Positions 1-18,892 of a stretch of 20,000 nucleotides of DNA are shown here, one piece after another. The stretch is from an uncultured virus (IMG/VR IMGVR_UViG_3300046411_001024) (lineage: Duplodnaviria > Heunggongvirae > Uroviricota > Caudoviricetes). Position numbers and translations under genes: made by a program. The DNA is taken from the IMG/VR virus record IMGVR_UViG_3300046411_001024; one strand, given 5' to 3'. A model generated the notes under the pieces. It ran no database searches. It saw only the letters and a list, made by a program, of their open reading frames with translations, and was not told the origin of the DNA. The number at the start of each line of letters is the position of its first letter. Position 1 is the stretch's first letter.

Positions 1-334
1 AAAAATCTACTGAATCTCTAGAATCTCCTACGAGAGCAGTATTGAATAATGTAGTTTTTTCATTACTTACATTTTTCTCCATAACTTCGAAACTCTCAGG
101 TGTTGGCTCATAAGTATATACATGCTTAGCACCATTCTTTAGTGCTAGGTCTGTAAAGCATCCTATATGCCCACCTACATCCATTACAACTTTATCATTG
201 AAATCTAATTTAGCATATTGAGTCATCTCTTTAATAACGAACAACTCTCCTAAATCTGGTCTGTAAAATAGTCCAGAAGTTTCATCCTTTACTATTTCAG
301 CCACTTGTTCTCTTTCACTTGTAGTACTTATCAT
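1..334 (-). CDS. FkbM-family SAM-dependent methyltransferase (runs off the left edge; not in the ORF track)
   Basis: Manual translation from ATG at 334 (ATGA overlap with upstream stop; GAGG RBS) is open to the window edge: MISTTSEREQVAEIVKDETSGLFYRPDLGELFVIKEMTQYAKLDFNDKVVMDVGGHIGCFTDLALKNGAKHVYTYEPTPESFEVMEKNV...LFNTAL. It shows the FkbM pattern D(V/I)GxxIG, V..EP.P and N.AL. Confidence 0.85.
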   Translation of the reverse strand, partial: MISTTSEREQVAEIVKDETSGLFYRPDLGELFVIKEMTQYAKLDFNDKVVMDVGGHIGCFTDLALKNGAKHVYTYEPTPESFEVMEKNVSNEKTTLFNTALVGDSRDSVDF

Positions 335-1245
335 ATATAATCCTCTTGTTTCCTGAATTTATTAGAAAGAGATGATGAGATTTCAGGTTGCTCTCGTTTA
401 TTATCTCTTGCGTATTTAAAATGGACATCACCGATTTCATCTAAAGTCATATCCTTAAAATGTTTTGCTGGTGGGATACCAACATAAGTTCTTTTTAAAT
501 CAATCAGCATAATCAATCTATGCTCATCAGTATTGTTATGAGCACTATGCATATATTGATTATTAAATCCCCATGGGTGTTGCCAATCAACTTCCTCGCC
601 CTGTGCTTCTAAAAATAAATCTCCCTCAGGTACTATAAGAGGAATATGTATTCTAATATTTTCCCCTTTCTTATTTTCTATACCTATGTGTCTTTCAATA
701 ATACTTTGAGCAGGTAATATACTGTATTCAAGTATAGGGCATCTTTCTTTATAATGCTCAGCAATTTTTTTCATAGTTGGGAATGCTTCAGGATTATATC
801 CGTCTTGCTTTTGTTTGATGTTTAACATTCGCTTTTGAATCTTTTCATCAGCACCAGACCCAACAATATTTGGGTTATGGTATTTCATAACTAAGACTCG
901 CCAAGCATCGTTATTATATTCACCTGCAGTTGATTGACCCTTTAGCATATTATCATCCATACCCACTTGCATCTTTGCTCTAGCAATCTTATCGGGACTT
1001 CCTTCACGAGATCGTTTCAACTGACTGTATATTGATTCTAATGCAGAAGTCGTACCTCTTTTTAGGCAATCTTCTATATCTTCATATTCTGTTAAAAAAT
1101 CCCTTGTTAAATCAGGTACGAAACCCATAAGGAAATCTAACTCGTCATCAAATCTTTTTACATCTCCATAACGAAATATTTTTTGTGTTCTTAGTTTGGC
1201 TATTGCTTCTTTGTCATAACTAAGATGTTCTGGCAAGTTTATCAT
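331..1245 (-). CDS. Aspartyl/asparaginyl beta-hydroxylase (ASPH/LpxO-like) 2OG-Fe(II) oxygenase domain protein
   Basis: The C-terminal half has YSILPAQSIIERHIG...IRIHIPLIVP...FNNQYMHSAHN...RLIMLID, matching the ASPH-family pattern S.L.....I..H.G...R.H..L.VP...F.....H...N....R..L..D. The N-terminal ~150 aa are unrecognised. Confidence 0.8.
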   Translation of the reverse strand: MINLPEHLSYDKEAIAKLRTQKIFRYGDVKRFDDELDFLMGFVPDLTRDFLTEYEDIEDCLKRGTTSALESIYSQLKRSREGSPDKIARAKMQVGMDDNMLKGQSTAGEYNNDAWRVLVMKYHNPNIVGSGADEKIQKRMLNIKQKQDGYNPEAFPTMKKIAEHYKERCPILEYSILPAQSIIERHIGIENKKGENIRIHIPLIVPEGDLFLEAQGEEVDWQHPWGFNNQYMHSAHNNTDEHRLIMLIDLKRTYVGIPPAKHFKDMTLDEIGDVHFKYARDNKREQPEISSSLSNKFRKQEDYI

Positions 1246-3057: not shown

Positions 3058-3612
3058 TTATTTTCCATACTGAATGACGATTGAAAATCTGTGCGTTGGG
3101 CTGTGGATTGTTGGTGGGTTGATTGTGTGGGGTATTGTGCCATCGAATAAAATTATCCTCCCTGGAATATAGAACGATGCCCAGTCTAGGGTATCGTTGG
3201 TTGAGTTAGTAAACAGTGTTTGTCCACCCCAAGACTTTTCCCATTCCATGTTGGGATAATATAGCATGGTTAAATTATGCTCAGCACCAGTATCGCAATG
3301 AAAACGATTTTTATCCTGGATTGTACTAAGGTTAATCCTAGCTTGTGTTATTGTATAGTCATCTAAGTGGTGTTTGATGTGGGAATATGCTTCAATTTTC
3401 TCTATCCCCATATTTTCCACATCAACGAGAGAGAGATTACAATATAAGTTATAGTCGCCTTTAGTCTCCAATCTTTGTACATCAGAGCCACTTAGCGAAT
3501 ACTTTTTGTTTAAGCAATAACTATATAGTCTTTCTCGTTCTTCGAAAGTAAAGATATTATCAAAATACCACAGAGACTTTCCATCGATCTTTCTGAGTCG
3601 TTCTTCAACCAT
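3058..3612 (-). CDS. 2OG-Fe(II) oxygenase (prolyl-4-hydroxylase-like)
   Basis: H-x-D (HCD), LYYPN..W...WGG, PGRIILFDGTIPH (distal His) and R-x-S (RFS) 2OG-binding motif. Confidence 0.9.
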   Translation of the reverse strand: MVEERLRKIDGKSLWYFDNIFTFEERERLYSYCLNKKYSLSGSDVQRLETKGDYNLYCNLSLVDVENMGIEKIEAYSHIKHHLDDYTITQARINLSTIQDKNRFHCDTGAEHNLTMLYYPNMEWEKSWGGQTLFTNSTNDTLDWASFYIPGRIILFDGTIPHTINPPTIHSPTHRFSIVIQYGK

Positions 3613-10280: not shown

Positions 10281-11909
10281 TTAGTCTCCTATTTTAGATT
10301 GAAATTGTTTATATGATAAGGGCATCCCTTTGACTGGCTCAACTTTTGGCTCGTTGACGGACTCTAAGTCTCCATCTTCCACCAACTTAATGTAGTCATG
10401 GGCAGAGTCGGTAAGATCTGAAACGATCTCTTCAACTTCTGATATAGTTAGACCATTAAAGGTCTCAAAACTTTCTGCTGCTTTTTTCAAAGCATACTTA
10501 ACTTTTCCATTAGATGCTAATCCTTTTTTCATTTTATTAATTGCATTTGTAGCACCAGTGTAGTTATGTCCAGCCATCTTCTTAGCGATGTCGACAGCTT
10601 TAGCGATTTCTGCATCGGAGAATTCTCCTTCATCAATCATTTCGTCTTTATCTTTTTTCTTTTGTGCGTTTACTGATTTTTTAGATTTCGGTTTCATATA
10701 CTTAGAATGGTCTTCTGTAGTATAAATTTTTAAATCCTCAGTTGGTACTTCTTTTTCAACACCATGTTCGAATTCTACATCATACCAAGAAACATAGCCA
10801 TCGTCAGTTGGTACTGCGTGACTTTCATAAACTGGCTTTCCGAATCCCCATACAATATGTTCTACGACAGTAGCACAGTCATGGTCTTTTGAATGACAGT
10901 TTTCTCTTTCTTCGTTAGCAGTTTTTGCAGCACTAGCGAAATCTTTTTCTGTAGGTGCACCCTTCTCACCTTTTTTACGCATTTTTTCTCCTCGTTTTCT
11001 TTTCATATTTATATTATGATACAGACCAGGACCTTTCTCGTCTATTGCTTCTTCTTTCTTGAATGCATTGGGAGCCATTCTCATATATTCATGCCTTGCT
11101 TTTTTAATTTTGTCACTAATGGCATCAATATTCTTTCCTGCTTTTCTCATTTTATCTCTTTGGATAAGCATGGCTTTAAATGCTGCTGGCATTTCTTCAT
11201 CAAGTGATTCTTTGTTGAGCATTTTGCCATATTCTATTCTGGCTTTTTTAATTTTGTCACTAATAGAATCAATATTCTGTCCCATAGCTTTCATTCTAGC
11301 TTTTTGGTCCAGCATTTTTCTCAAGTCACCATAGTTTCTGATTGTTTCATCAAGCGATTCTTTTTTCATACCACCTGCTTGAATTTTTTTCTTTTCAGCT
11401 TCTATTTCTTTATCAACCACCATAGTGTTTTGACCCATTTTTCTCATGCGTTGCTTCTTTAAAAGTAAATCTGAATATTTTGCATACTTACCTTCAGTTT
11501 TCATAGCTTTTTCTAATTCTTTAGCTTGACCTGAATGTGCTTTAGTTGCACCTTTTAATGCTTTTACTACATCTTTGACAACTTTCTTATCTTTATTGTC
11601 AAGTTTTTCTCCCATGGTTATGCCTTTTGCTTTCTTAAGTTTTGCTTCCGCATCCCTTTTCACTTTGTTAGCTTTCTTTTGCATTTCCTTTGCTCTTTCA
11701 GCAGAGGTCATAGGTTTCATCATGTCTTCGTTTTTGACAGCCTTAGAAACAGCTTTGCGTCTTTTGTGAAGATATTTGTCAGAAGCATCGACATCGCCAT
11801 CGTTGTCGATATCCTTGTCTTTTCTATCTTTAAATTTTTTCTTTACAGCTTTTGAATTCACTGAATCCAATGCTTCCATAAACTCTTGATATCCTAAAAC
11901 TTCTGACAT
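10281..11909 (-). CDS. Lys/Glu-rich modular protein, probable capsid-internal protein
   Basis: Starts MSEVLGYQEFME (capsid-targeting-like); DIDNDGDVD Ca-loop-like motif; three ~48-50 aa repeats; His/Cys module HDCATVVEH...H...WYDVEFEHG; modules separated by LDE/IDE/xEE sites. Confidence 0.7.
   Translation of the reverse strand: MSEVLGYQEFMEALDSVNSKAVKKKFKDRKDKDIDNDGDVDASDKYLHKRRKAVSKAVKNEDMMKPMTSAERAKEMQKKANKVKRDAEAKLKKAKGITMGEKLDNKDKKVVKDVVKALKGATKAHSGQAKELEKAMKTEGKYAKYSDLLLKKQRMRKMGQNTMVVDKEIEAEKKKIQAGGMKKESLDETIRNYGDLRKMLDQKARMKAMGQNIDSISDKIKKARIEYGKMLNKESLDEEMPAAFKAMLIQRDKMRKAGKNIDAISDKIKKARHEYMRMAPNAFKKEEAIDEKGPGLYHNINMKRKRGEKMRKKGEKGAPTEKDFASAAKTANEERENCHSKDHDCATVVEHIVWGFGKPVYESHAVPTDDGYVSWYDVEFEHGVEKEVPTEDLKIYTTEDHSKYMKPKSKKSVNAQKKKDKDEMIDEGEFSDAEIAKAVDIAKKMAGHNYTGATNAINKMKKGLASNGKVKYALKKAAESFETFNGLTISEVEEIVSDLTDSAHDYIKLVEDGDLESVNEPKVEPVKGMPLSYKQFQSKIGD
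11060..11490 (-). repeat. Three tandem ~144-150 nt intragenic repeats (~48-50 aa)
   Basis: GCTTTTTTAATTTTGTCACTAAT is identical at 11098-11120 and 11242-11264; TTCATCAAG(T/C)GATTCTTT occurs at 11196 and 11346. Protein units RMRKMGQN / RMKAMGQNIDSISDKIKKAR / KMRKAGKNIDAISDKIKKAR. Confidence 0.85.
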
Positions 11910-12163: not shown

Positions 12164-12287
12164 TTCGTTCTCCTTCATTGTTGAATTTACTATTATTTAG
12201 TTCTATTTTACTTTCTAGTTCTCGAATTTTACCTTCAAGTTCTAGTACTTTTTGCCTTTCGGACTCATATAATGCAAGATAATCCAT
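12156..12287 (-). CDS. 43-aa coiled-coil small protein (below the ORF-track cut-off)
   Basis: ATG overlaps the ACP-fusion stop (TAATG at 12287); MDYLALYESERQKVLELEGKIRELESKIELNNSKFNNEGERND*; its stop overlaps the start region of the next gene. Confidence 0.6.
   Translation of the reverse strand: MDYLALYESERQKVLELEGKIRELESKIELNNSKFNNEGERND
12194..12200 (-). promoter_or_regulatory. Putative T4-like late promoter (CTAAATA)
   Basis: CTAAATA about 30 nt upstream of ATG 12163; resembles the T4 gp55 late consensus TATAAATA, but short motifs occur by chance in AT-rich DNA. Confidence 0.4.
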
Positions 12288-13252
12288 TATTTGTTGTGTC
12301 CAACTGATAAATCATCGTCATCATCGTCTAAAAGGTCACGCAATTTTTTCTCTCTTTCCTCTTCTTCTTCGAGATATTTGTCTATATCAGTTTCCATACG
12401 ATGCTTTTCATCAGTCCCTGCCATGAATTGTTTATAAGCAGAGTTGCCTGAATGTACTTCTTTACCATCTACTGTATCTGTAGTTGGTCTAAAGATAATA
12501 TCTTCTTCGTCGAATTCAGGTATAGGATAAGGCATATTATCATTTTCGATCTTATACTTAATAACTTCAAAGATATCTCTAAGGGTTTTGACCCACATAA
12601 TCTCAGTATTTTCGATTTGGGCACCAAGCATATCCTCAGCATCCATAATTAGTTCGATAGCATCAAGCGAATCAATATCTAAATCCCTTACGAGGTGAGC
12701 ATCCATACCACCAGCTTCCATAATCTCAGATACTTCTAGCTGTTTAATCTCAGCCAAACCTTCAATAATTTTTTTCTCAAACTCTTCTTCTGATAAGAAT
12801 TTAACATAGTGTACTTGAACAGCTTGTCCTTCGGTAATTGTCAACCTTTTATTTTCATCAATCTCTTGTTTATTTTCTTTTAGCCATTCTTGAGCACCTT
12901 CTAAATTATTATCGCCAATCTGTTCAATCGCCCAATCTACTTTGGATTTGTCAGTTGTTTTAGCAGTTGCTTCCTTATATTTCTCATAATCCTCTAGTTG
13001 TTTTTCTCTAGTAGGAATAGCCATACCCATAACTCTTTTAAGCACACCCTCAGGAAGAGGTGCATTAGGATCTGTACTATAAGGATTTACACTAGGGTTT
13101 GATTCTGTAGGTTTTGTCAACCCACTTTTCATTTCTTCCTCTAGTTGTTTTTGTTGTGCCAGATGTTCTTCTACATCTGCTTCGTTTATAAGTTCATCCC
13201 ATTGTTCGTCAGTTTCTGGGATGTCCACTGGACCATTCTTTTCACTACTCAT
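12287..13252 (-). CDS. Acidic protein with an internal acyl carrier protein (phosphopantetheine-binding) domain
   Basis: AHLVRDLDIDSLDAIELIMDAEDMLGAQI....IMWVKTLRDIFEVI aligns by eye with AcpP [20 protein letters not shown]...I....AEKITTV; attachment Ser195 (codon 12668-12670); GGAG RBS. Confidence 0.85.
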   Translation of the reverse strand: MSSEKNGPVDIPETDEQWDELINEADVEEHLAQQKQLEEEMKSGLTKPTESNPSVNPYSTDPNAPLPEGVLKRVMGMAIPTREKQLEDYEKYKEATAKTTDKSKVDWAIEQIGDNNLEGAQEWLKENKQEIDENKRLTITEGQAVQVHYVKFLSEEEFEKKIIEGLAEIKQLEVSEIMEAGGMDAHLVRDLDIDSLDAIELIMDAEDMLGAQIENTEIMWVKTLRDIFEVIKYKIENDNMPYPIPEFDEEDIIFRPTTDTVDGKEVHSGNSAYKQFMAGTDEKHRMETDIDKYLEEEEEREKKLRDLLDDDDDDLSVGHNK

Positions 13253-13276: not shown

Positions 13277-13624
13277 TTAACTATTTACTTTGGCACCTGC
13301 TCTCCACTGATAGCATGACCAATATTTCGCTTTCCATTTTGGACCTGGATTATCACACCCATGTCTTGCTCTGAAACTTTTTCTCCTTTTAGGATCGTCC
13401 CTTTTAATACTTAGGTTCGGATCTCCGAATCGTACAACAACGACATTACCTTTTGGACCTTTTACATATACCTTAAATTTTTTGTTAGGATTTTCAGAAG
13501 TACGAATAGGATCGTTAAGTGTGACAGTTTTGCCTTGATACTTAGCTTCTTCTAATGTAGGAAGTTCCATAGCTTCGCATACTGCGTCTATGTTATCTTC
13601 TCTATGTTCCTTAAAAGTTTTCAT
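13277..13624 (-). CDS. Small basic virion protein (DUF6321-like) with a capsid-targeting-like N-terminus
   Basis: Begins MKTFKE; KKFKVYVK...VRFGDPNL...RRKSFRARHGC...YWSC..W motif recalled from T4-like phages and large DNA viruses; TAATG overlap. Confidence 0.7.
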   Translation of the reverse strand: MKTFKEHREDNIDAVCEAMELPTLEEAKYQGKTVTLNDPIRTSENPNKKFKVYVKGPKGNVVVVRFGDPNLSIKRDDPKRRKSFRARHGCDNPGPKWKAKYWSCYQWRAGAKVNS

Positions 13625-16600
13625 TATTTTTTCCTAACTCCACCATATGCTTTACCAGTTGCCCCACCATAACCTTTTTTACTTTTAGATCTTTGACCAA
13701 CATAGTTGCCTACAGTTTTACGACCTGTTTGTTTTTTGGCAGTTCTAATTCTACCACCAGCCAGTGCCGATTTAAATTTTTGAGCAGGTTTTACAGATTT
13801 TCTACCATGTAGTCTTTTCTTTTCCATCTGCCTAACACGAGGTGCTAGTTTTAGGGCAATCCTTTTTACTACATGACGCATTTTAGCGATTCTTGCTTCG
13901 GCTCTTTCCCTTTCACCTACAGATAGTTGATTAGGTGCCTTTTTAAAGAATCTTCTTTTCAGTAATTTTACTGCTAATCTTCTTGCTCTACTATTTATAA
14001 CCTGTGTAGAAGAGTGTCGTCTAAGAGCGATTCGTAAACTTCTTGCTCTCCTTGCCTTAGTTCTTCTAACTCTTACTCGGTTTTTAATTCTTTCAGTTCT
14101 ACTTAGTACTTCGTTCAGCTGTTGTTCTAAATCACCCTCAAGATATTCAAAGTTTTCTTGAGTGACTTCGCCTTCTTCATCTTCAACTTCTAATGCTAGT
14201 TCTTCATCATCATATAAGTCAAAGATATCTAGTTTACCATTTATTGGATCTTGCTCAGGGTCAAACATATTGACCACATTTTCGATTTCATCATCGTTAA
14301 GATCGTCAAGCATTGCGTCAGCTTTTGGGTCAGCTACAAATACTTCTAAATCATATGGGTCGTCAGACTTAGGTGTTCCTGATTTTTTTTTAATCTTATC
14401 AGCTTTTGGTTTATCTTCAGTTTCTACTGGCTTATCGATTTCTATTTTAGTCATCGGTTCGCCATCAGCTTCTTCTTTCATAGCCATCTTAGTAGCTGTA
14501 GCATACATTACATCTTTATAATCTTTACCATATCGCTTTTTAAAATCAGCAGTTTTATCTTTCATGCCCTTAACGATATCTTCTCGTTTTTTCATTTGGG
14601 CATCAGTCATTTCCTTTTCTTCTGGTATATCGCCATAAGTTTCACATGGGTCTTTGCCACACCCACAGTTCTTTTTTTGTTCTTTTAATTCAACATCGCC
14701 TTTTTTCTTTTTCTTATTTGGCTCTACTTCATCACTCATTGCTGACCTTGCTTTATCTGCAAGATCTTTATCAGCTTTGCCCCAAGTTCCTTTACCTTTA
14801 CCAATGAAACTATTTACACGAGCGAGTGCCCATTGTTGTTGAGATGCTCCTGGACGATGCCCTGTACCATATGCAGCCATTCCTCTTTTGTAAACCTGCA
14901 TTAATATACCTTTAGGAATACCAGACTTCTTAGCTTTCTTTGCTACAGCTGTGTTTTCTTCTAACCAATCTTCATCGATAACTTGTTTCATTATCTTTTC
15001 ATCGCGAGTAGCTTTACTGTCAACTTCCATAGTGCCATCTACTTTTCTCTTTTCAATACCACCAGCTAGTTTTAACATCTTTTTGTAATCTTGGTAAGAC
15101 ATAATAGACTTAGCAATATTAAAATTACTAGAAGGATCTACTTCATCTACACTTGGTCGTTTTACTTCCCATATTTTCTGCTCATTAGCACCCTCTACTC
15201 CAGGAAGATTTTTCATTCTATCTTTACACTTTTTATATTCAGCATAAAGTTCATCAAACTCTTTTGACCCTTTATCAGCTTTCGCCATTTTCTTTTTAGT
15301 CATAGCCATACGCATCATAAGTTCTGCTCTTAGACCTTGCCTAACTTTACGAGTGACATTTTTACCTACACCCATGATACCATCTTTGCCTTCAGACTCT
15401 TCTTTCTTCACTCCAGGTTTTGTTTCCCTGTTTTTCTTCTGAGCATCTTGAGTTCTAGCACGATCCATCATTTTATCATGCTTCATTTTATCTGCTTCTT
15501 TTTCTTTTTTAATTCTTTCTTTTGTGGCTTTTACATCTTCATCCCAGAAAGCTGTTAAATCTTCAATAGTTTTTAACCATGCTTCGTTTTGTTCTTCTGG
15601 GTCGCCATACTTTTTATGGTATTTAAGTGTATGTTTAGATTTTTTTGTTTTCTTAAAATCGCCTTTTTTATCTAGATCTCCAGCAGCAGGATCGTACTTG
15701 GTAGGATCGCTATCATCTTTTTTAGAATCTTTTTCAAACTCTGCCTTCCTTGCTTTTTTATCTTTAGAAGATACACCTTTATAATATTGGTCAGCTTCAT
15801 CCATAGGATTCTTTACACCACGAAGTGGTTCATCTCTACCAGACTTCTTAGCTTTAGGATCTTCTTTATTAGCAACAGAATCCCAGTTTGATAATGTATC
15901 TTTTAGAGATTTCATGGATTTACCCATACCTCTTGACACATTTAATTTTTGAGCAGGTCTTCTTAGCGAATCGTATTTGTTTAAGATTCCTTCAGATGCT
16001 CCAGGAGACATTTTACCTTTTGAGCCATCATTAAATTCGAATGTATAATTACCTTTTAGATTAATATTTTTTCTAAGTTGTAATACGATAGGATCTACAC
16101 CTGAGCCAGATACTTCGCTCATAAAATCTTTAAATGATTTGTTTTCTACTGCGAACTTCCCTTGTCTCATAATAGCTGGTAAATATTGACGATCGTAATC
16201 TATTCCTGCAGTTTTAGCAGTCTGTAGCATTTTCTTTACGATTTCAGCAAACTCAGGAGTGACTCTTTTTGTTCTTAGTTTTCTAAGACCAAAGTTTATA
16301 AGTTGAGTTGGGTTTGACATTTTCTCAGGGTTATCAACACCCATTGAACCAGCAATAATTCTAGCGACCTTAATCCTATCAGCAGAAGTAAATCTAAATT
16401 TATTCTGTGGGTCAATTTTTAAGTTCTTTTGTTCTTCTAAATCTTTTCTCATATTTGGTTCCTTAGAGAGTAAGTCAGCCAAGTCGGCATTTATTTGGTC
16501 TAAGTAGTCATGTCTTTCTAACTCTCCTATATTATTTAGGGAGTCTGACAATTTCATTTTTATGATAGAATCAGCACCAACTTCTTCCATTAGTGCGTAT

Positions 16601-17604
16601 CCTCTAGACTTAGCTTCCTCTAATATCTTTAATGACTGGTCGACAAGTTTTAAGCATGTAAGCACAGCAACAGGATCTTTATCACTTTCAAATAAATCTA
16701 GAAACTTATCTTTTATTTCGTAGTAATTATGGAAGTGTTCTGTAGTAAACCCTTTAAATACCAATTCATCATTATAATGATAGTCATTTACAGTATTAGT
16801 TTCGGCGATCTGACGAACTTCGTGTAGCCATTTTTTGGATACATTGCCATCTTCGTCAGATACACTAATATAATTTGCCCCACGATCCATAACTTCATAT
16901 ACACCATCAGCGTCTTCAACTACTGCTCCGACATTAAATATCTTCTTCGCTACATAATCTTCTCTTAGTTGAGATGTTGGTAGAATTACTTCTTCTCTAA
17001 TTGGTGGCAGACCCATGCCTTTGCGTACTTCGTTAAATAATCTTTTACTATCAGCCATAGTCATTCTACGAGGGATACCTCGTTTGAAGTCAGTAAATTT
17101 ACCAGAACTGGCAGCAGTTCTCATTTTAGTAGCTGACATTCCCTCAGCCATATCTGAGTCAGGGTCTCTACGACCAGAAGATAATACAGTTATCTTATCA
17201 AAGTTGTAATCTTTACCATTATATTGGTTGAGTAATCTCTTGTATTCAGCAATCCTATCACTACCAGCAATAAGTGTTAGTTCAGTAATCTTTTCTTTTG
17301 TATTGAGATACTTTGCTACTTCTATAATTGTTCTTTGATTAGGCGACTTCGTTGGCACGAAAGGAGCGTTCACACCGAACATCCTTTTCATGTAATAGAT
17401 TTTGCGTTCTTGTTTTAGTGGGTTTTTCTTTTTGTCTTCAGTAGCTGTGACATATATTTTGGAGGGACTGCCTTTTGAACGAGCATACTGGGTCACCTTA
17501 TTGATAAGTAATTCGTGACCAGTGGTTGGAGGATTAAATCTTCCAAACCCTATGACCATTTTTTTAGCAGGCACTTCATTAAGAAGTGTTTTAAAGTCTT
17601 TCAT
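13624..17604 (-). CDS. 1326-aa modular protein: N-terminal cytidyltransferase-like (HIGH/TxGH) nucleotidyltransferase, DUF5824-like segments and an Arg-rich C-terminal module
   Basis: FGRFNPPTTGH, NPL, AGSDR, RDPD and MSATKMR in aa 1-200; YKRGMAAYGTGHRPGASQQQWALARVNSF; very Arg-rich last ~165 aa; starts MKDFKTLLNE. Confidence 0.85.
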   Translation of the reverse strand: MKDFKTLLNEVPAKKMVIGFGRFNPPTTGHELLINKVTQYARSKGSPSKIYVTATEDKKKNPLKQERKIYYMKRMFGVNAPFVPTKSPNQRTIIEVAKYLNTKEKITELTLIAGSDRIAEYKRLLNQYNGKDYNFDKITVLSSGRRDPDSDMAEGMSATKMRTAASSGKFTDFKRGIPRRMTMADSKRLFNEVRKGMGLPPIREEVILPTSQLREDYVAKKIFNVGAVVEDADGVYEVMDRGANYISVSDEDGNVSKKWLHEVRQIAETNTVNDYHYNDELVFKGFTTEHFHNYYEIKDKFLDLFESDKDPVAVLTCLKLVDQSLKILEEAKSRGYALMEEVGADSIIKMKLSDSLNNIGELERHDYLDQINADLADLLSKEPNMRKDLEEQKNLKIDPQNKFRFTSADRIKVARIIAGSMGVDNPEKMSNPTQLINFGLRKLRTKRVTPEFAEIVKKMLQTAKTAGIDYDRQYLPAIMRQGKFAVENKSFKDFMSEVSGSGVDPIVLQLRKNINLKGNYTFEFNDGSKGKMSPGASEGILNKYDSLRRPAQKLNVSRGMGKSMKSLKDTLSNWDSVANKEDPKAKKSGRDEPLRGVKNPMDEADQYYKGVSSKDKKARKAEFEKDSKKDDSDPTKYDPAAGDLDKKGDFKKTKKSKHTLKYHKKYGDPEEQNEAWLKTIEDLTAFWDEDVKATKERIKKEKEADKMKHDKMMDRARTQDAQKKNRETKPGVKKEESEGKDGIMGVGKNVTRKVRQGLRAELMMRMAMTKKKMAKADKGSKEFDELYAEYKKCKDRMKNLPGVEGANEQKIWEVKRPSVDEVDPSSNFNIAKSIMSYQDYKKMLKLAGGIEKRKVDGTMEVDSKATRDEKIMKQVIDEDWLEENTAVAKKAKKSGIPKGILMQVYKRGMAAYGTGHRPGASQQQWALARVNSFIGKGKGTWGKADKDLADKARSAMSDEVEPNKKKKKGDVELKEQKKNCGCGKDPCETYGDIPEEKEMTDAQMKKREDIVKGMKDKTADFKKRYGKDYKDVMYATATKMAMKEEADGEPMTKIEIDKPVETEDKPKADKIKKKSGTPKSDDPYDLEVFVADPKADAMLDDLNDDEIENVVNMFDPEQDPINGKLDIFDLYDDEELALEVEDEEGEVTQENFEYLEGDLEQQLNEVLSRTERIKNRVRVRRTKARRARSLRIALRRHSSTQVINSRARRLAVKLLKRRFFKKAPNQLSVGERERAEARIAKMRHVVKRIALKLAPRVRQMEKKRLHGRKSVKPAQKFKSALAGGRIRTAKKQTGRKTVGNYVGQRSKSKKGYGGATGKAYGGVRKK

Positions 17605-17626: not shown

Positions 17627-17652
17627 ATACCTATATTTAGGTATTTATTTAT
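17627..17652 (-). promoter_or_regulatory. Putative late promoter cluster (ATAAATA x2, CTAAATA) overlapping a 7-bp inverted repeat
   Basis: Minus strand ATAAATAAATACCTAAATATAGGTAT lies ~25-50 nt upstream of the 1326-aa ORF; ATACCTA-4 nt-TAGGTAT hairpin at 17627-17644. Confidence 0.55.
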
Positions 17653-18892
17653 TCCAACCTTTCAATATTTCAGGAGAAAAATTCAGGCGAGAGAACTCAA
17701 GTCTATCTACCAGTTTTACAGCTTTCCCTGACATCTTGTCAATAGCCACATAACCCTCAACTCCTGTCACTTTAAACCCATTGCGAGTCCTTACAAAAGT
17801 TTTCATAGATCCAATTTGGTTCATTTTATTGATTAGTGTTTGCTTTGCATCCACCATCATATTCATCAGCTTAAATATCTCAACGATTTTTTGTTTGTCA
17901 TTTATAAAAAATGACAGTACATCATTCTTTTTAGCTTTCCAAGTATTCTTACCAGCTTCAGTTTTCTTGCTATCTATTTCTTTCTTATACTTGTTAGCAA
18001 TATAATGAAACATTTGCGTCACATGCTGGCTTGGGTTGGTAATCCTTTTCCCTGCTTTTATCTTAGTATTGTTAAATGCCTTGATATTGATAAGCAAATC
18101 TTTATTAGCATTAATACTGTTCAATATATTAGCATTTACTTTTCTAAACTGAGTACCGATAGCAGATAGTTGCTTAGTAAACTCAGCTGTTTCTTTAGCA
18201 GTCATAGATGCTTGACCTGATACATCTTTATAAGTAGCATCATCAAACCAAACATCGCCACCTAGTATTCCAGGTTGTTTCATTTTCTTAGCAATGTTTT
18301 TACCAAACGATGCTCTAAGAGTATCGAATGTATTTCCAGTATATTCAGTATGCCAGACGATACCCATATGAGCACGACGAATAACATTTGATAATCCTGA
18401 TATAGCAGGAACAGCATAGACGATAGTATTAGGTTGAAAAGTCACCATAGACTGACCATCTATATCTTTTAATTTTAAGTCATTACGACCTGCCCACATT
18501 AAGTCTCCTTGAAAGATACCACGATCTGGTAGAATCTTGGGTAAATATTTCAAGCAAATTAATAGCTTTGCTTGTAAGTCCCCAGATGTATCTTTCTTAA
18601 CATCGGCAGGTGTATAATAAACTTTAGGATCTTTATTGAAGATACCTTTTTTAGCAACAAACTTTTTTCCATTTCTAGGATCTGTACCAGCAAAGATTGC
18701 TGGGGCACCATCCCATTTTACTGTAGCATTTACTTTGTTTGATGATTTACCAGCCAACATATCACGCATACCTTGCATGAAATTAATTGCTCGTCTAGCA
18801 CCAGCGACACCCTCGTCAAAGAGGATGTCTTCAATATGTTCCATATGAACATTTTTTTGCTCAGTAATTAATGTCTTAAATGATTTTACCAT
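17645..18892 (-). CDS. DUF6267-like protein with ATP-dependent ligase-type motifs (putative RNA-ligase-fold nucleotidyltransferase)
   Basis: HMEHIED, TVKWDGAP (K59, motif I KxDG), FVAKK, FQGD (motif III-like), EGYV (aa 379-382, motif IV-like), AVKLVDR (motif V-like); starts MVKSFKTLITE. Confidence 0.65.
   Translation of the reverse strand: MVKSFKTLITEQKNVHMEHIEDILFDEGVAGARRAINFMQGMRDMLAGKSSNKVNATVKWDGAPAIFAGTDPRNGKKFVAKKGIFNKDPKVYYTPADVKKDTSGDLQAKLLICLKYLPKILPDRGIFQGDLMWAGRNDLKLKDIDGQSMVTFQPNTIVYAVPAISGLSNVIRRAHMGIVWHTEYTGNTFDTLRASFGKNIAKKMKQPGILGGDVWFDDATYKDVSGQASMTAKETAEFTKQLSAIGTQFRKVNANILNSINANKDLLINIKAFNNTKIKAGKRITNPSQHVTQMFHYIANKYKKEIDSKKTEAGKNTWKAKKNDVLSFFINDKQKIVEIFKLMNMMVDAKQTLINKMNQIGSMKTFVRTRNGFKVTGVEGYVAIDKMSGKAVKLVDRLEFSRLNFSPEILKGWNK

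What the first reader, a model, noticed from the sequence alone, without database searches (positions are those of the whole stretch)
17645..18892. Hypothetical DUF6267-like protein looks like an RNA-ligase-fold enzyme, paired with a nucleotidyltransferase
Seen: KWDG (K59), FVAKK, FQGD, EGYV and AVKLV occur in the order expected for nucleotidyltransferase motifs I, Ia, III, IV and V, with a long helical insert before motif IV. Established: ligases and capping enzymes form Lys-NMP at KxDG; T4 Rnl2 has EGYV in motif IV; T4 uses RNA repair (Pnk/Rnl1) against the PrrC anticodon nuclease. Inference: a packaged ligase-like enzyme next to a packaged TxGH nucleotidyltransferase could be an undescribed two-enzyme system for RNA repair, nucleotide-signal or cofactor handling, or protein NMPylation at the moment of injection.
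Basis: partly seen in the sequence, partly recalled or inferred. Interest (0 to 1): 0.75.

Follow-up and report, generated by a model that had tools for sequence, protein, structure and literature searches.

The report
Hidden ligase family in marine phages
A 'function unknown' gene found in hundreds of T4-like ocean phages folds like an RNA/DNA-joining enzyme, travels with an NAD-type adenylyltransferase and, in this phage, starts with the tag that phage T4 uses to load proteins into its head; what it joins is not yet known.

Summary
Observation confirmed. ORF 17645-18892 (-) is DUF6267/phrog_455/T4-GC 71. Its five motifs are near-invariant in 123 aligned sequences. The AlphaFold model (pLDDT 93) matches polynucleotide-ligase nucleotidyltransferase cores, RNA ligases first (NgrRnl Z 8.5-8.8, REL1 8.1, T4 Rnl2 7.7), with a basic helical insert and no OB domain. 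No sequence-level link to Rnl2 was found. Distant homologs in cultured jumbo phages (PA5oct, Paride) have more canonical motifs. The neighbour is NMNAT/PPAT-like (Z 12.8), not a cytidylyltransferase. It is fused to the ligase in 75 of 140 long homologs but unlinked in several phages. Both proteins here carry T4-like capsid-targeting leaders. However, DUF6267 is not listed in three virion proteomes of relatives (all lacking a clear tag), while the partner is in two of those three. Seven of nine carriers lack any standard DNA ligase. Best reading: a new ATP-dependent ligase family acting on nucleic-acid ends, probably head-packaged here, only loosely coupled to its partner; activity and substrate untested. 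The scan noted this family before on at least ten other windows.

The parts
17645..18892 (-). DUF6267 protein, 415 aa: divergent polynucleotide-ligase-type covalent nucleotidyltransferase (K59 motif I; K82; W180/H181; D130; E379; K393), with a basic helical insert (res 232-360) and no OB or C-terminal domain
   Evidence: insert has 24 K/R versus 10 D/E
18860..18892 (-). Capsid-targeting-like leader of the DUF6267 protein (res 1-11, ending in a gp21-type I-T-E site); low pLDDT, outside the folded core
   Evidence: T4 IPII/IPIII N-termini read; rule matches 56 of 123 rows versus 1.7% of shuffles; pLDDT <50 at res 1-12
17005..17604 (-). HxGH (TxGH) nucleotidyltransferase domain of the 1326-aa neighbour, NMNAT/NaMNAT/PPAT-like, with its own capsid-targeting-like leader
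   Evidence: AF2 pLDDT 90.5; Foldseek NadM E 2.2e-6; VIA Z 12.8 to NaMNAT, glycerol-3-P cytidylyltransferase only 8.1; leader
13624..17004 (-). Rest of the 1326-aa protein: a small beta-barrel domain (res ~222-269), a second tag-like site at res 491, DUF5824 (res 832-947) and other modules; reads as a polyprotein of head cargo
   Evidence: (Tudor-like hit Z 7.3); resemblance of modules to separate tagged genes of C48C1 and DLP6 judged by eye
17634..17652 (-). T4/cyanophage late-promoter-like repeats (ATAAATA twice, CTAAATA) 36-48 bases upstream of the HxGH gene
   Evidence: NATAAATA given as the S-PM2 late promoter in PMC2984593; a consensus match only

Best explanation
DUF6267 is a new, divergent family of the polynucleotide ligase / capping-enzyme covalent nucleotidyltransferase superfamily, closest in shape to the OB-less ATP-dependent RNA ligase cores. 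Shown: fold, motif conservation, genomic partners, leader. Inferred from the superfamily: K59 attacks ATP to form Lys-AMP, AMP passes to a 5'-phosphate end, and the end is sealed to a 3'-OH, with the basic helical insert gripping nucleic acid in place of an OB domain. Inferred from the leader: in this phage the protein is loaded into the prohead, trimmed after Glu11 by the gp21-type protease and injected, so it can repair broken RNA (slightly favoured by the fold ranking) or phage DNA from the start of infection. The HxGH neighbour is an NMNAT-like adenylyltransferase shipped as head cargo. It belongs to the same accessory kit, together with a kinase or a Pol-beta-type transferase in other phages, but need not share a substrate with the ligase.
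For: All 50 rows of the VIA second look are polynucleotide ligases: RNA ligases at ranks 1-21 (Z 8.8-7.1), DNA ligases from rank 22 (Z <=6.7). The only two chains at Z >=8 among 48,161 are NgrRnl (8.5, rmsd 3.9, 187 aligned) and REL1 (8.1, 4.2, 197); model 13-402 aligns to Rnl2 4-233. Motif residues near-invariant. Jumbo-phage homologs have ExKxDG, Arg in Ia and Glu in III and link to DUF6267 by profile (hhalign global probability 81.5, E 1.3e-6, 302 columns). Other partners are end-processing types: a PSTK/zeta/AAA_33-like kinase fused in 4 of 140 long homologs, and a Pol-beta-like GS..DxD motif fused in P0214 and next door in PA5oct and Phosso. The leader rule matches 54 of 98 long-leader rows and 38 of 59 HxGH rows, versus 10 of 574 control ORFs. 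A gp21-family protease is on a contig with a 100%-identical DUF6267 gene (G009).
Against: Z values of 7-9 are middling and helical bundles score alike (4hr1 Z 7.8). Foldseek's best PDB E-value is only 0.018, and there is no sequence or profile link to Rnl2. DUF6267 is not among 30 virion proteins of S-SZBM1 or 52 of S-CREM2, and the PA5oct homolog is not flagged although its neighbours are; the cyanophage copies read lack the leader. No late-promoter match lies within 150 bases upstream of the DUF6267 start; a sigma70-type site lies about 940 bases upstream. No kinase was found in this contig or three close relatives, all fragments, and no Pol-beta motif in this contig. A gene kept in nearly all cyanomyoviruses looks more like housekeeping than defence-specific repair. 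The tag rule was written after seeing these N-termini.
Confidence: 0.5

Rival explanations
1. It is the 'missing' DNA ligase of cyanomyoviruses and kin: a housekeeping nick-sealing enzyme for replication and recombination, made during infection and mostly not packaged. The leader is a lineage-specific extra.
For: PMC2984593 states that g30 homologues are absent from cyanomyoviruses and leaves unidentified distant homologues open. PF01068 is absent from 7 of 9 carriers, PF01653 from 5 of 5, PF09414 and PF09511 from 10 of 10. The gene follows gp43/uvsX/gp41 in P-SSM4, S-PM2, S-SZBM1 and HTVC008M, and primase/helicase in PA5oct and Phosso. It is not listed in three virion proteomes.
Against: DLP6 and PA5oct carry both it and a standard DNA ligase. 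It has no OB domain, and RNA ligases outrank DNA ligases in VIA, although Foldseek ranks DNA ligases first. In this window it lies far from gp41/gp43-type genes and is tagged.
Confidence: 0.2
2. An NAD+-fuelled two-enzyme cycle: the ligase-fold enzyme takes AMP from NAD+ and releases NMN, and the NMNAT-like partner turns NMN plus ATP back into NAD+.
For: The partner folds like NMNAT, yet 9 of 12 carrier genomes lack the Nampt/NadV family that would supply NMN. Fusions occur in both orders. There is an invariant extra N-terminal HxEHxE motif, and one fusion to an ADP-ribosyltransferase.
Against: No NAD+-dependent ligase is among the 50 rows of either VIA list (one weak Foldseek row, E 0.78), and no domain-Ia-like part is evident. 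The host could supply NMN. The HxGH enzyme occurs in A4 without a detected ligase-like gene.
Confidence: 0.12
3. A non-sealing nucleotidyltransferase: it caps or blocks 5' ends (AppN or GppN) of phage DNA or RNA, or NMPylates a host protein or small molecule, as T4 Alt modifies host proteins after injection.
For: It lacks the accessory domains that Rnl2 and DNA ligases use for nick sealing (recalled). Motifs Ia and III are altered. It shares the cargo signal with Alt-type proteins (PMC9026906).
Against: No capping enzyme is among the listed structural matches. Kinase and Pol-beta-type neighbours fit fill-and-seal repair better.
Confidence: 0.12
4. The ligase resemblance is superficial or the enzyme is dead; the protein is a nucleic-acid-binding internal protein.
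For: Only middling Z-scores and no significant sequence link to ligases.
Against: The invariant residues are the charged ones at predicted catalytic positions (K59, K82, D130, E379, K393) and persist in homologs at about 14% identity.
Confidence: 0.06

Closest known systems
ATP-dependent RNA ligases: Naegleria NgrRnl (Rnl5, PDB 5cot/6vt1), trypanosome REL1 (1xdn), T4 Rnl2 (1s68/2hvq), T4 Rnl1, fungal Trl1
   Same: Nucleotidyltransferase core aligned over 180-210 residues, Z 7-8.8; motif order I-Ia-III-IIIa-IV-V; EGYV in IV as in T4 Rnl2.
   Different: 11-14% identity; no profile match; about 115 extra residues between IIIa and IV; Asp in III and Lys in Ia; single Lys in V followed by DRxEFS; ends 22 residues after motif V; capsid-targeting-like leader.
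ATP-dependent DNA ligases (T4 gp30, archaeal and human LigI; PF01068)
   Same: KxDG motif; Foldseek's first 12 rows are DNA ligases or ligase-containing complexes; VIA Z up to 6.7.
   Different: No OB or DNA-binding domain; no PF01068 hit; lower Z than RNA ligases.
T4 internal proteins IPI-III and Alt (capsid-targeting sequence, gp21 cleavage, injection)
   Same: Leader with hydrophobic residues at CTS positions 4 and 7 and a terminal Glu (PMC9026906 passages).
   Different: The cargo is a ligase-fold enzyme and an NMNAT-like enzyme; T4 has neither gene; packaging untested here.
Phage NMNAT / NadM / NARP2 and the cyanophage 'cytidylyltransferase' (T4-GC 190, phrog_395/3041)
   Same: The neighbour belongs to the cyanophage family by sequence, which is reported in virion proteomes and called NMNAT-like (PMC10665884, PMC9146016, PMC9602691).
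   Different: Usually no Nampt in the genome, no Nudix or kinase fusion here, well below NMNAT model cut-offs; activity never measured in the papers read.
Phage RNA-repair sets (T4 Pnk/Rnl1; RlaP plus Rnl in jumbo phages, PMC7824862)
   Same: Ligase accompanied by a P-loop kinase or a Pol-beta-type transferase in some genomes.
   Different: Here the constant partner is an HxGH enzyme; the kinase is sporadic; the passages read do not list this family.

Membership tests
Polynucleotide ligase / capping-enzyme covalent nucleotidyltransferase superfamily | Nucleotidyltransferase core fold | tested here: met
   VIA Z 8.5-8.8, rmsd 3.7-3.9, 185-188 aligned to NgrRnl; all 50 rows ligases; middling Z, so moderate strength
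Polynucleotide ligase / capping-enzyme covalent nucleotidyltransferase superfamily | Conserved motif I Lys (KxDG) plus motifs III, IV, V in order | tested here: met
   K59, D130 (Glu in jumbo homologs), E379, K393 near-invariant
Polynucleotide ligase / capping-enzyme covalent nucleotidyltransferase superfamily | Covalent Lys-NMP intermediate | not testable with these tools
   needs an alpha-32P-NTP/NAD assay
Polynucleotide ligase / capping-enzyme covalent nucleotidyltransferase superfamily | Motif residues cluster in one pocket | tested here: inconclusive
   model coordinates and residue pairs are not returned; only alignment ranges (model 13-402 to Rnl2 4-233) fit
Rnl2 family (PF09414, T4 gp24.1) | Sequence/profile similarity and C-terminal helical domain after motif V | tested here: not met
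   no Pfam hit; hhalign probability <1% to an 18-sequence Rnl2 profile (shallow profile); protein ends 22 residues after K393
ATP-dependent DNA ligase (PF01068) | C-terminal OB domain after motif V | tested here: not met
   model ends with a short helix after motif V; no Pfam hit
NAD+-dependent DNA ligase | Domain Ia and LigA-type core | tested here: inconclusive
   not listed in VIA top rows; one weak Foldseek row
mRNA capping guanylyltransferase | GTase core plus OB domain, GTP specificity | tested here: inconclusive
   not among listed PDB matches; no OB domain; nucleotide preference untested
T4-type capsid-targeted internal proteins | N-terminal CTS ending in a gp21 site | tested here: met
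   (post-hoc rule); gp21-family protease in G006, G007, G009
T4-type capsid-targeted internal proteins | Presence in virions and injection | tested here: inconclusive
   partner listed in S-SZBM1 and S-CREM2, not flagged in PA5oct; DUF6267 listed in none of the three, whose copies lack a clear tag; no proteome of a tagged carrier was read
NMNAT/NaMNAT (neighbour) | HxGH Rossmann-type adenylyltransferase fold | tested here: met
   Z 12.8, rmsd 3.3, 155 aligned; PPAT ties at Z 11.8
NMNAT/NaMNAT (neighbour) | NMN/NaMN binding and NAD synthesis | not testable with these tools
   NCBIfam scores far below cut-offs; needs an assay
NARP2 (Nampt plus Nmnat) | Nampt partner in the genome | tested here: inconclusive
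   PF04095 in 3 of 12 carriers and absent from the 73%- and 65%-complete close relatives; this phage's own genome is a fragment

The most novel reading that the evidence does not exclude
A virion-delivered, self-recharging nucleotidyl-transfer kit conserved from marine cyanomyoviruses to Pseudomonas jumbo phages. An OB-less ligase-fold enzyme runs on NAD+ (or on ends pre-adenylylated by its partner) and the NMNAT-like partner regenerates the donor, so the phage can seal or cap nucleic-acid ends before any phage gene is expressed, even in starved or dormant hosts.
Probability: 0.15. Interest if true: 0.85.

Novelty: new variant of a known kind. Interest (0 to 1): 0.6.

Why it matters
The gene is in 469 phage records, nearly all marine cyanomyoviruses plus pelagiphage, methylophage and Stenotrophomonas phages, and is annotated as hypothetical in the rows listed. 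These phages were reported to lack a DNA ligase (PMC2984593), so a ligase-fold core gene makes that question directly testable. If it seals RNA or DNA it is a new ligase family; if it is injected it adds an enzyme class to phage head cargo. Distant homologs in PA5oct and Paride, which grow on laboratory P. aeruginosa, give a genetic system.

Tried and rejected
Sequence and profile searches of the PDB gave nothing significant for the ligase or the partner. hhalign to a T4 Rnl2 profile failed. The Atlas gave only unnamed viral clusters. A complex prediction of the two domains with ATP and Mg returned no verdict (score 0.00, mark 0.32) and is not used either way. S-CREM2 ORF112 (408 aa, abundant in virions) was suspected to be DUF6267; rejected, since the homolog maps at 58.9-59.8 kb. 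'Cytidylyltransferase' as the partner's activity is disfavoured: cytidylyltransferases score Z 7.7-8.4 against 11-12.8 for NMNAT/PPAT. A TmcAL-like reading (weak profile hit E 0.17) ranks lower by structure (Z 9.4-9.6). The kinase is not a fixed part: 36 phage records, 9 full-length, none from cyanophages. PF19782 and phrog_455 found no ligase part in Callisto, CBB, A4, Cr30 or K64-1, but they also missed Callisto's real distant homolog, so these negatives are weak. A GTDB scan gave one hit on a MAG contig (exact-peptide search, low sensitivity). No tRNA lies in the window. Supplement searches for S-SCSM1 and PA5oct gene ids returned nothing, so S-SCSM1's full virion list and the PA5oct expression class were not seen. 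No capping enzyme or NAD+-dependent ligase appeared in the VIA lists; this does not exclude them.

Full report
Context. The window is bases 1761-21760 of a 43-kb virus record from a T4-like phage of the Kyanoviridae neighbourhood: primase, NrdA and a head protein lie in the window, and contigs with 86-100% identical copies of the gene carry a gp21-family prohead protease. The ORF at 17645-18892 (-) is Pfam DUF6267 and phrog_455 and matches T4-GC 71 of P-SSM4 and S-PM2. It matches 469 phage records, 454 of them named Synechococcus, Cyanophage or Prochlorococcus; T4 has no match.

Observation. Motif III has Asp (440 of 460 rows) and motif Ia has Lys, where T4 Rnl2 has Glu99 and Arg55.

Fold. The AlphaFold model has mean pLDDT 93.1 and pTM 0.90, with a disordered leader and helices from 232 to 360. 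Foldseek gives no PDB hit at E <=0.001; its first 12 rows are DNA ligases or ligase complexes, best E 0.018. VIA against 48,161 chains gives two at Z >=8, NgrRnl and REL1, then T4 Rnl2 7.7, Trl1 7.5 and Rnl1 7.0, mixed with helical bundles. The second look lists 50 rows, all ligases, RNA ligases first. The aligned range covers the whole Rnl2 nucleotidyltransferase domain, and the protein ends just after motif V, so there is no OB or Rnl2-type C-terminal domain. Sequence methods find no link to known ligases. The fold call is good but not overwhelming.

Distant members. BFVD returned a 446-aa PA5oct protein at E 3.7e-5 and 14% identity. A 446-aa ORF in the related phage Callisto, which I take to be its counterpart by length and genus and not by accession, keeps H-L, EKIDG, SR, a Glu in motif III, PN, EGYV and KIVDK. 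It is 98-100% identical in 11 Pseudomonas phage records, including PA5oct gp228 and Paride, with weaker matches in RsoM2USA and Phosso. A profile of the PA5oct, RsoM2USA and Phosso proteins aligns to DUF6267 over 302 columns (global hhalign probability 81.5, E 1.3e-6). In PA5oct and Phosso the gene lies after primase and helicase, as in a second group of DUF6267 loci. Short cyanophage forms lack about 100 residues, much of it from the insert.

Partner. Residues 10-200 of the 1326-aa neighbour fold like NMN/NaMN adenylyltransferases and PPAT (Foldseek E 2.2e-6; VIA Z 12.8 and 11.8) more than cytidylyltransferases (Z <=8.4). Its distribution mirrors the ligase-like gene in cyanophages (375/61/24 versus 369/61/24 records) but is wider, 564 records in all. 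Among 140 long homologs of the ligase, a set chosen for length, 75 carry a fused HxGH domain or motif, 70 after and 5 before the ligase; 4 carry a P-loop kinase and one an ADP-ribosyltransferase. In 80 IMG/VR loci the HxGH gene follows within 1 kb in 30, of which 15 are close relatives of this phage; 17 of the other 50 have at least 5 kb downstream without it. It lies about 97 kb away in G001 and 65 kb away in S-CREM2, and is present but unlinked in PA5oct, RsoM2USA and Phosso. Phage A4 has it with no detected ligase-like ORF in 353,000 of 355,528 bases. So the ligase seems to need the partner's company more than the reverse. Since the 1326-aa protein itself looks like a string of head-cargo modules (partly by eye), fusion may reflect co-packaging and not a shared reaction. 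Following a lead from earlier notes of this scan, I found a Pol-beta-like motif in 2 of 140 long homologs (one convincing), in PA5oct gp231 (virion-flagged) and in Phosso gene 447, but not in this contig; the same pattern hit 4 of 1082 control ORFs.

Packaging. T4 IPII and IPIII start with the capsid-targeting sequence, whose residues 4 and 7 direct targeting and 8 and 10 processing (PMC9026906, passages). A rule built from it, after I had seen these N-termini, matches both window proteins, 56 of 123 DUF6267 rows and 38 of 59 HxGH rows. It matches 4 of 59 ORFs of the own contig, 10 of 574 jumbo-phage ORFs, 6 of 81 T4 ORFs and 1.7% of shuffles. Against this: in S-SZBM1 the HxGH protein is among 30 virion proteins and DUF6267 (gene 141) is not (PMC9146016, passages and table). 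In S-CREM2 the same holds among 52 (PMC10665884, passages and sections 18-19). In PA5oct neither is flagged in GenBank although neighbours are. The DUF6267 copies in those three lack a clear leader. S-SCSM1 reports an NMNAT in virions (PMC9602691, passages; homology to this partner not checked), while S-SCSM2R's 23 virion proteins as described do not include its NMNAT (PMC12801897, passages). Late-promoter-like words precede the HxGH gene but not the DUF6267 gene; a sigma70-type site lies upstream of three small genes before it, though promoter-like sites are not above chance in that region.

Other ligases and NAD genes. Of nine carriers only DLP6 and PA5oct have a PF01068 DNA ligase. None of five has PF01653, and none of ten has PF09414 or PF09511; T4 was positive for the three ATP-dependent families. 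Some carriers are incomplete. PMC2984593 (passages) notes that cyanomyoviruses lack g30 and might have unidentified distant homologues. Nampt/NadV occurs in 3 of 12 carriers.

Mechanism. Most likely, K59 forms Lys-AMP from ATP and the enzyme adenylylates and seals 5'-phosphate ends, using the basic insert (24 K/R versus 10 D/E) to hold nucleic acid; in this lineage it is head-loaded and injected. My odds: ligase-superfamily enzyme about 0.9; nucleic-acid sealing about 0.7; RNA slightly ahead of DNA; packaged in this phage about 0.6; direct catalytic coupling to the HxGH enzyme about 0.25. The rivals are the missing housekeeping DNA ligase, an NAD+/NMN cycle, a capping or NMPylating enzyme, and a dead protein.

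Novelty. 'DUF6267' is in 0 papers of the library. Searches on cytidyltransferase, cyanophage, virion and ligase terms showed no listing that assigns a ligase fold to this family. The passages read in PMC7824862 and PMC9503650 do not name it. PMC7318152, PMC7238727 and PMC2993671 were seen as passages only. The library holds only CC-licensed PMC papers and bioRxiv, and supplements were mostly not seen. The partner's family and its presence in virions are in print. This scan has noted the same family on at least ten other windows; those notes are unchecked and are not counted as support. Verdict: a new, divergent family within a known enzyme superfamily, in an undescribed gene set, with substrate open. 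Interest 0.6.

Noticed in passing
window 13624-17604 (-): The 1326-aa protein seems to be a polyprotein of modules that are separate tagged genes in C48C1 and DLP6 (DUF5824, an Arg-rich C-terminal module), with an internal tag-like site at residue 491.
   Followed up: partly
window 12287-13252 (-): A 321-aa acidic protein with an internal acyl-carrier-protein-like domain (PP-binding E 4e-5) in the head-cargo block; the same contig has FabI-like and AcpS-like ORFs near 38.6-40.4 kb (judged from N-termini). Relevant because the HxGH fold also fits PPAT.
   Followed up: no
window 10281-11909 and 13277-13624 (-): Two more basic proteins with capsid-targeting-like N-termini; the 115-aa family is also found fused to DUF6267 (P0124, by eye).
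   Followed up: partly
L019-L083 (for example L036, L052, L076): A second group of large phages (estimated 270-350 kb where checked) places DUF6267 after primase and helicase amid many genes with M-K/R-x-x-E-type leaders and next to IscU- and IscA-like genes (by eye), with no HxGH gene nearby.
   Followed up: partly
L182 7597-8310; L184 5193-6053: Unannotated Pol-beta-superfamily-like nucleotidyltransferases beside the ligase-like gene in PA5oct (virion-flagged gp231) and Phosso.
   Followed up: partly
L002 5992-7767: S-PM2 has DUF6267 fused to the HxGH domain in LN828717 (591 aa), while the older record AJ630128 shows the match in two pieces, suggesting a frameshift or a sequencing error.
   Followed up: no
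P0412: DUF6267 fused to an Alt-like ADP-ribosyltransferase domain (PF03496, E 2.3e-22).
   Followed up: no
window 331-1245 and 3058-3612 (-): Two 2OG-Fe(II) oxygenase genes (Asp/Asn beta-hydroxylase-like and 2OG-FeII_Oxy_3) flank nrdA.
   Followed up: no
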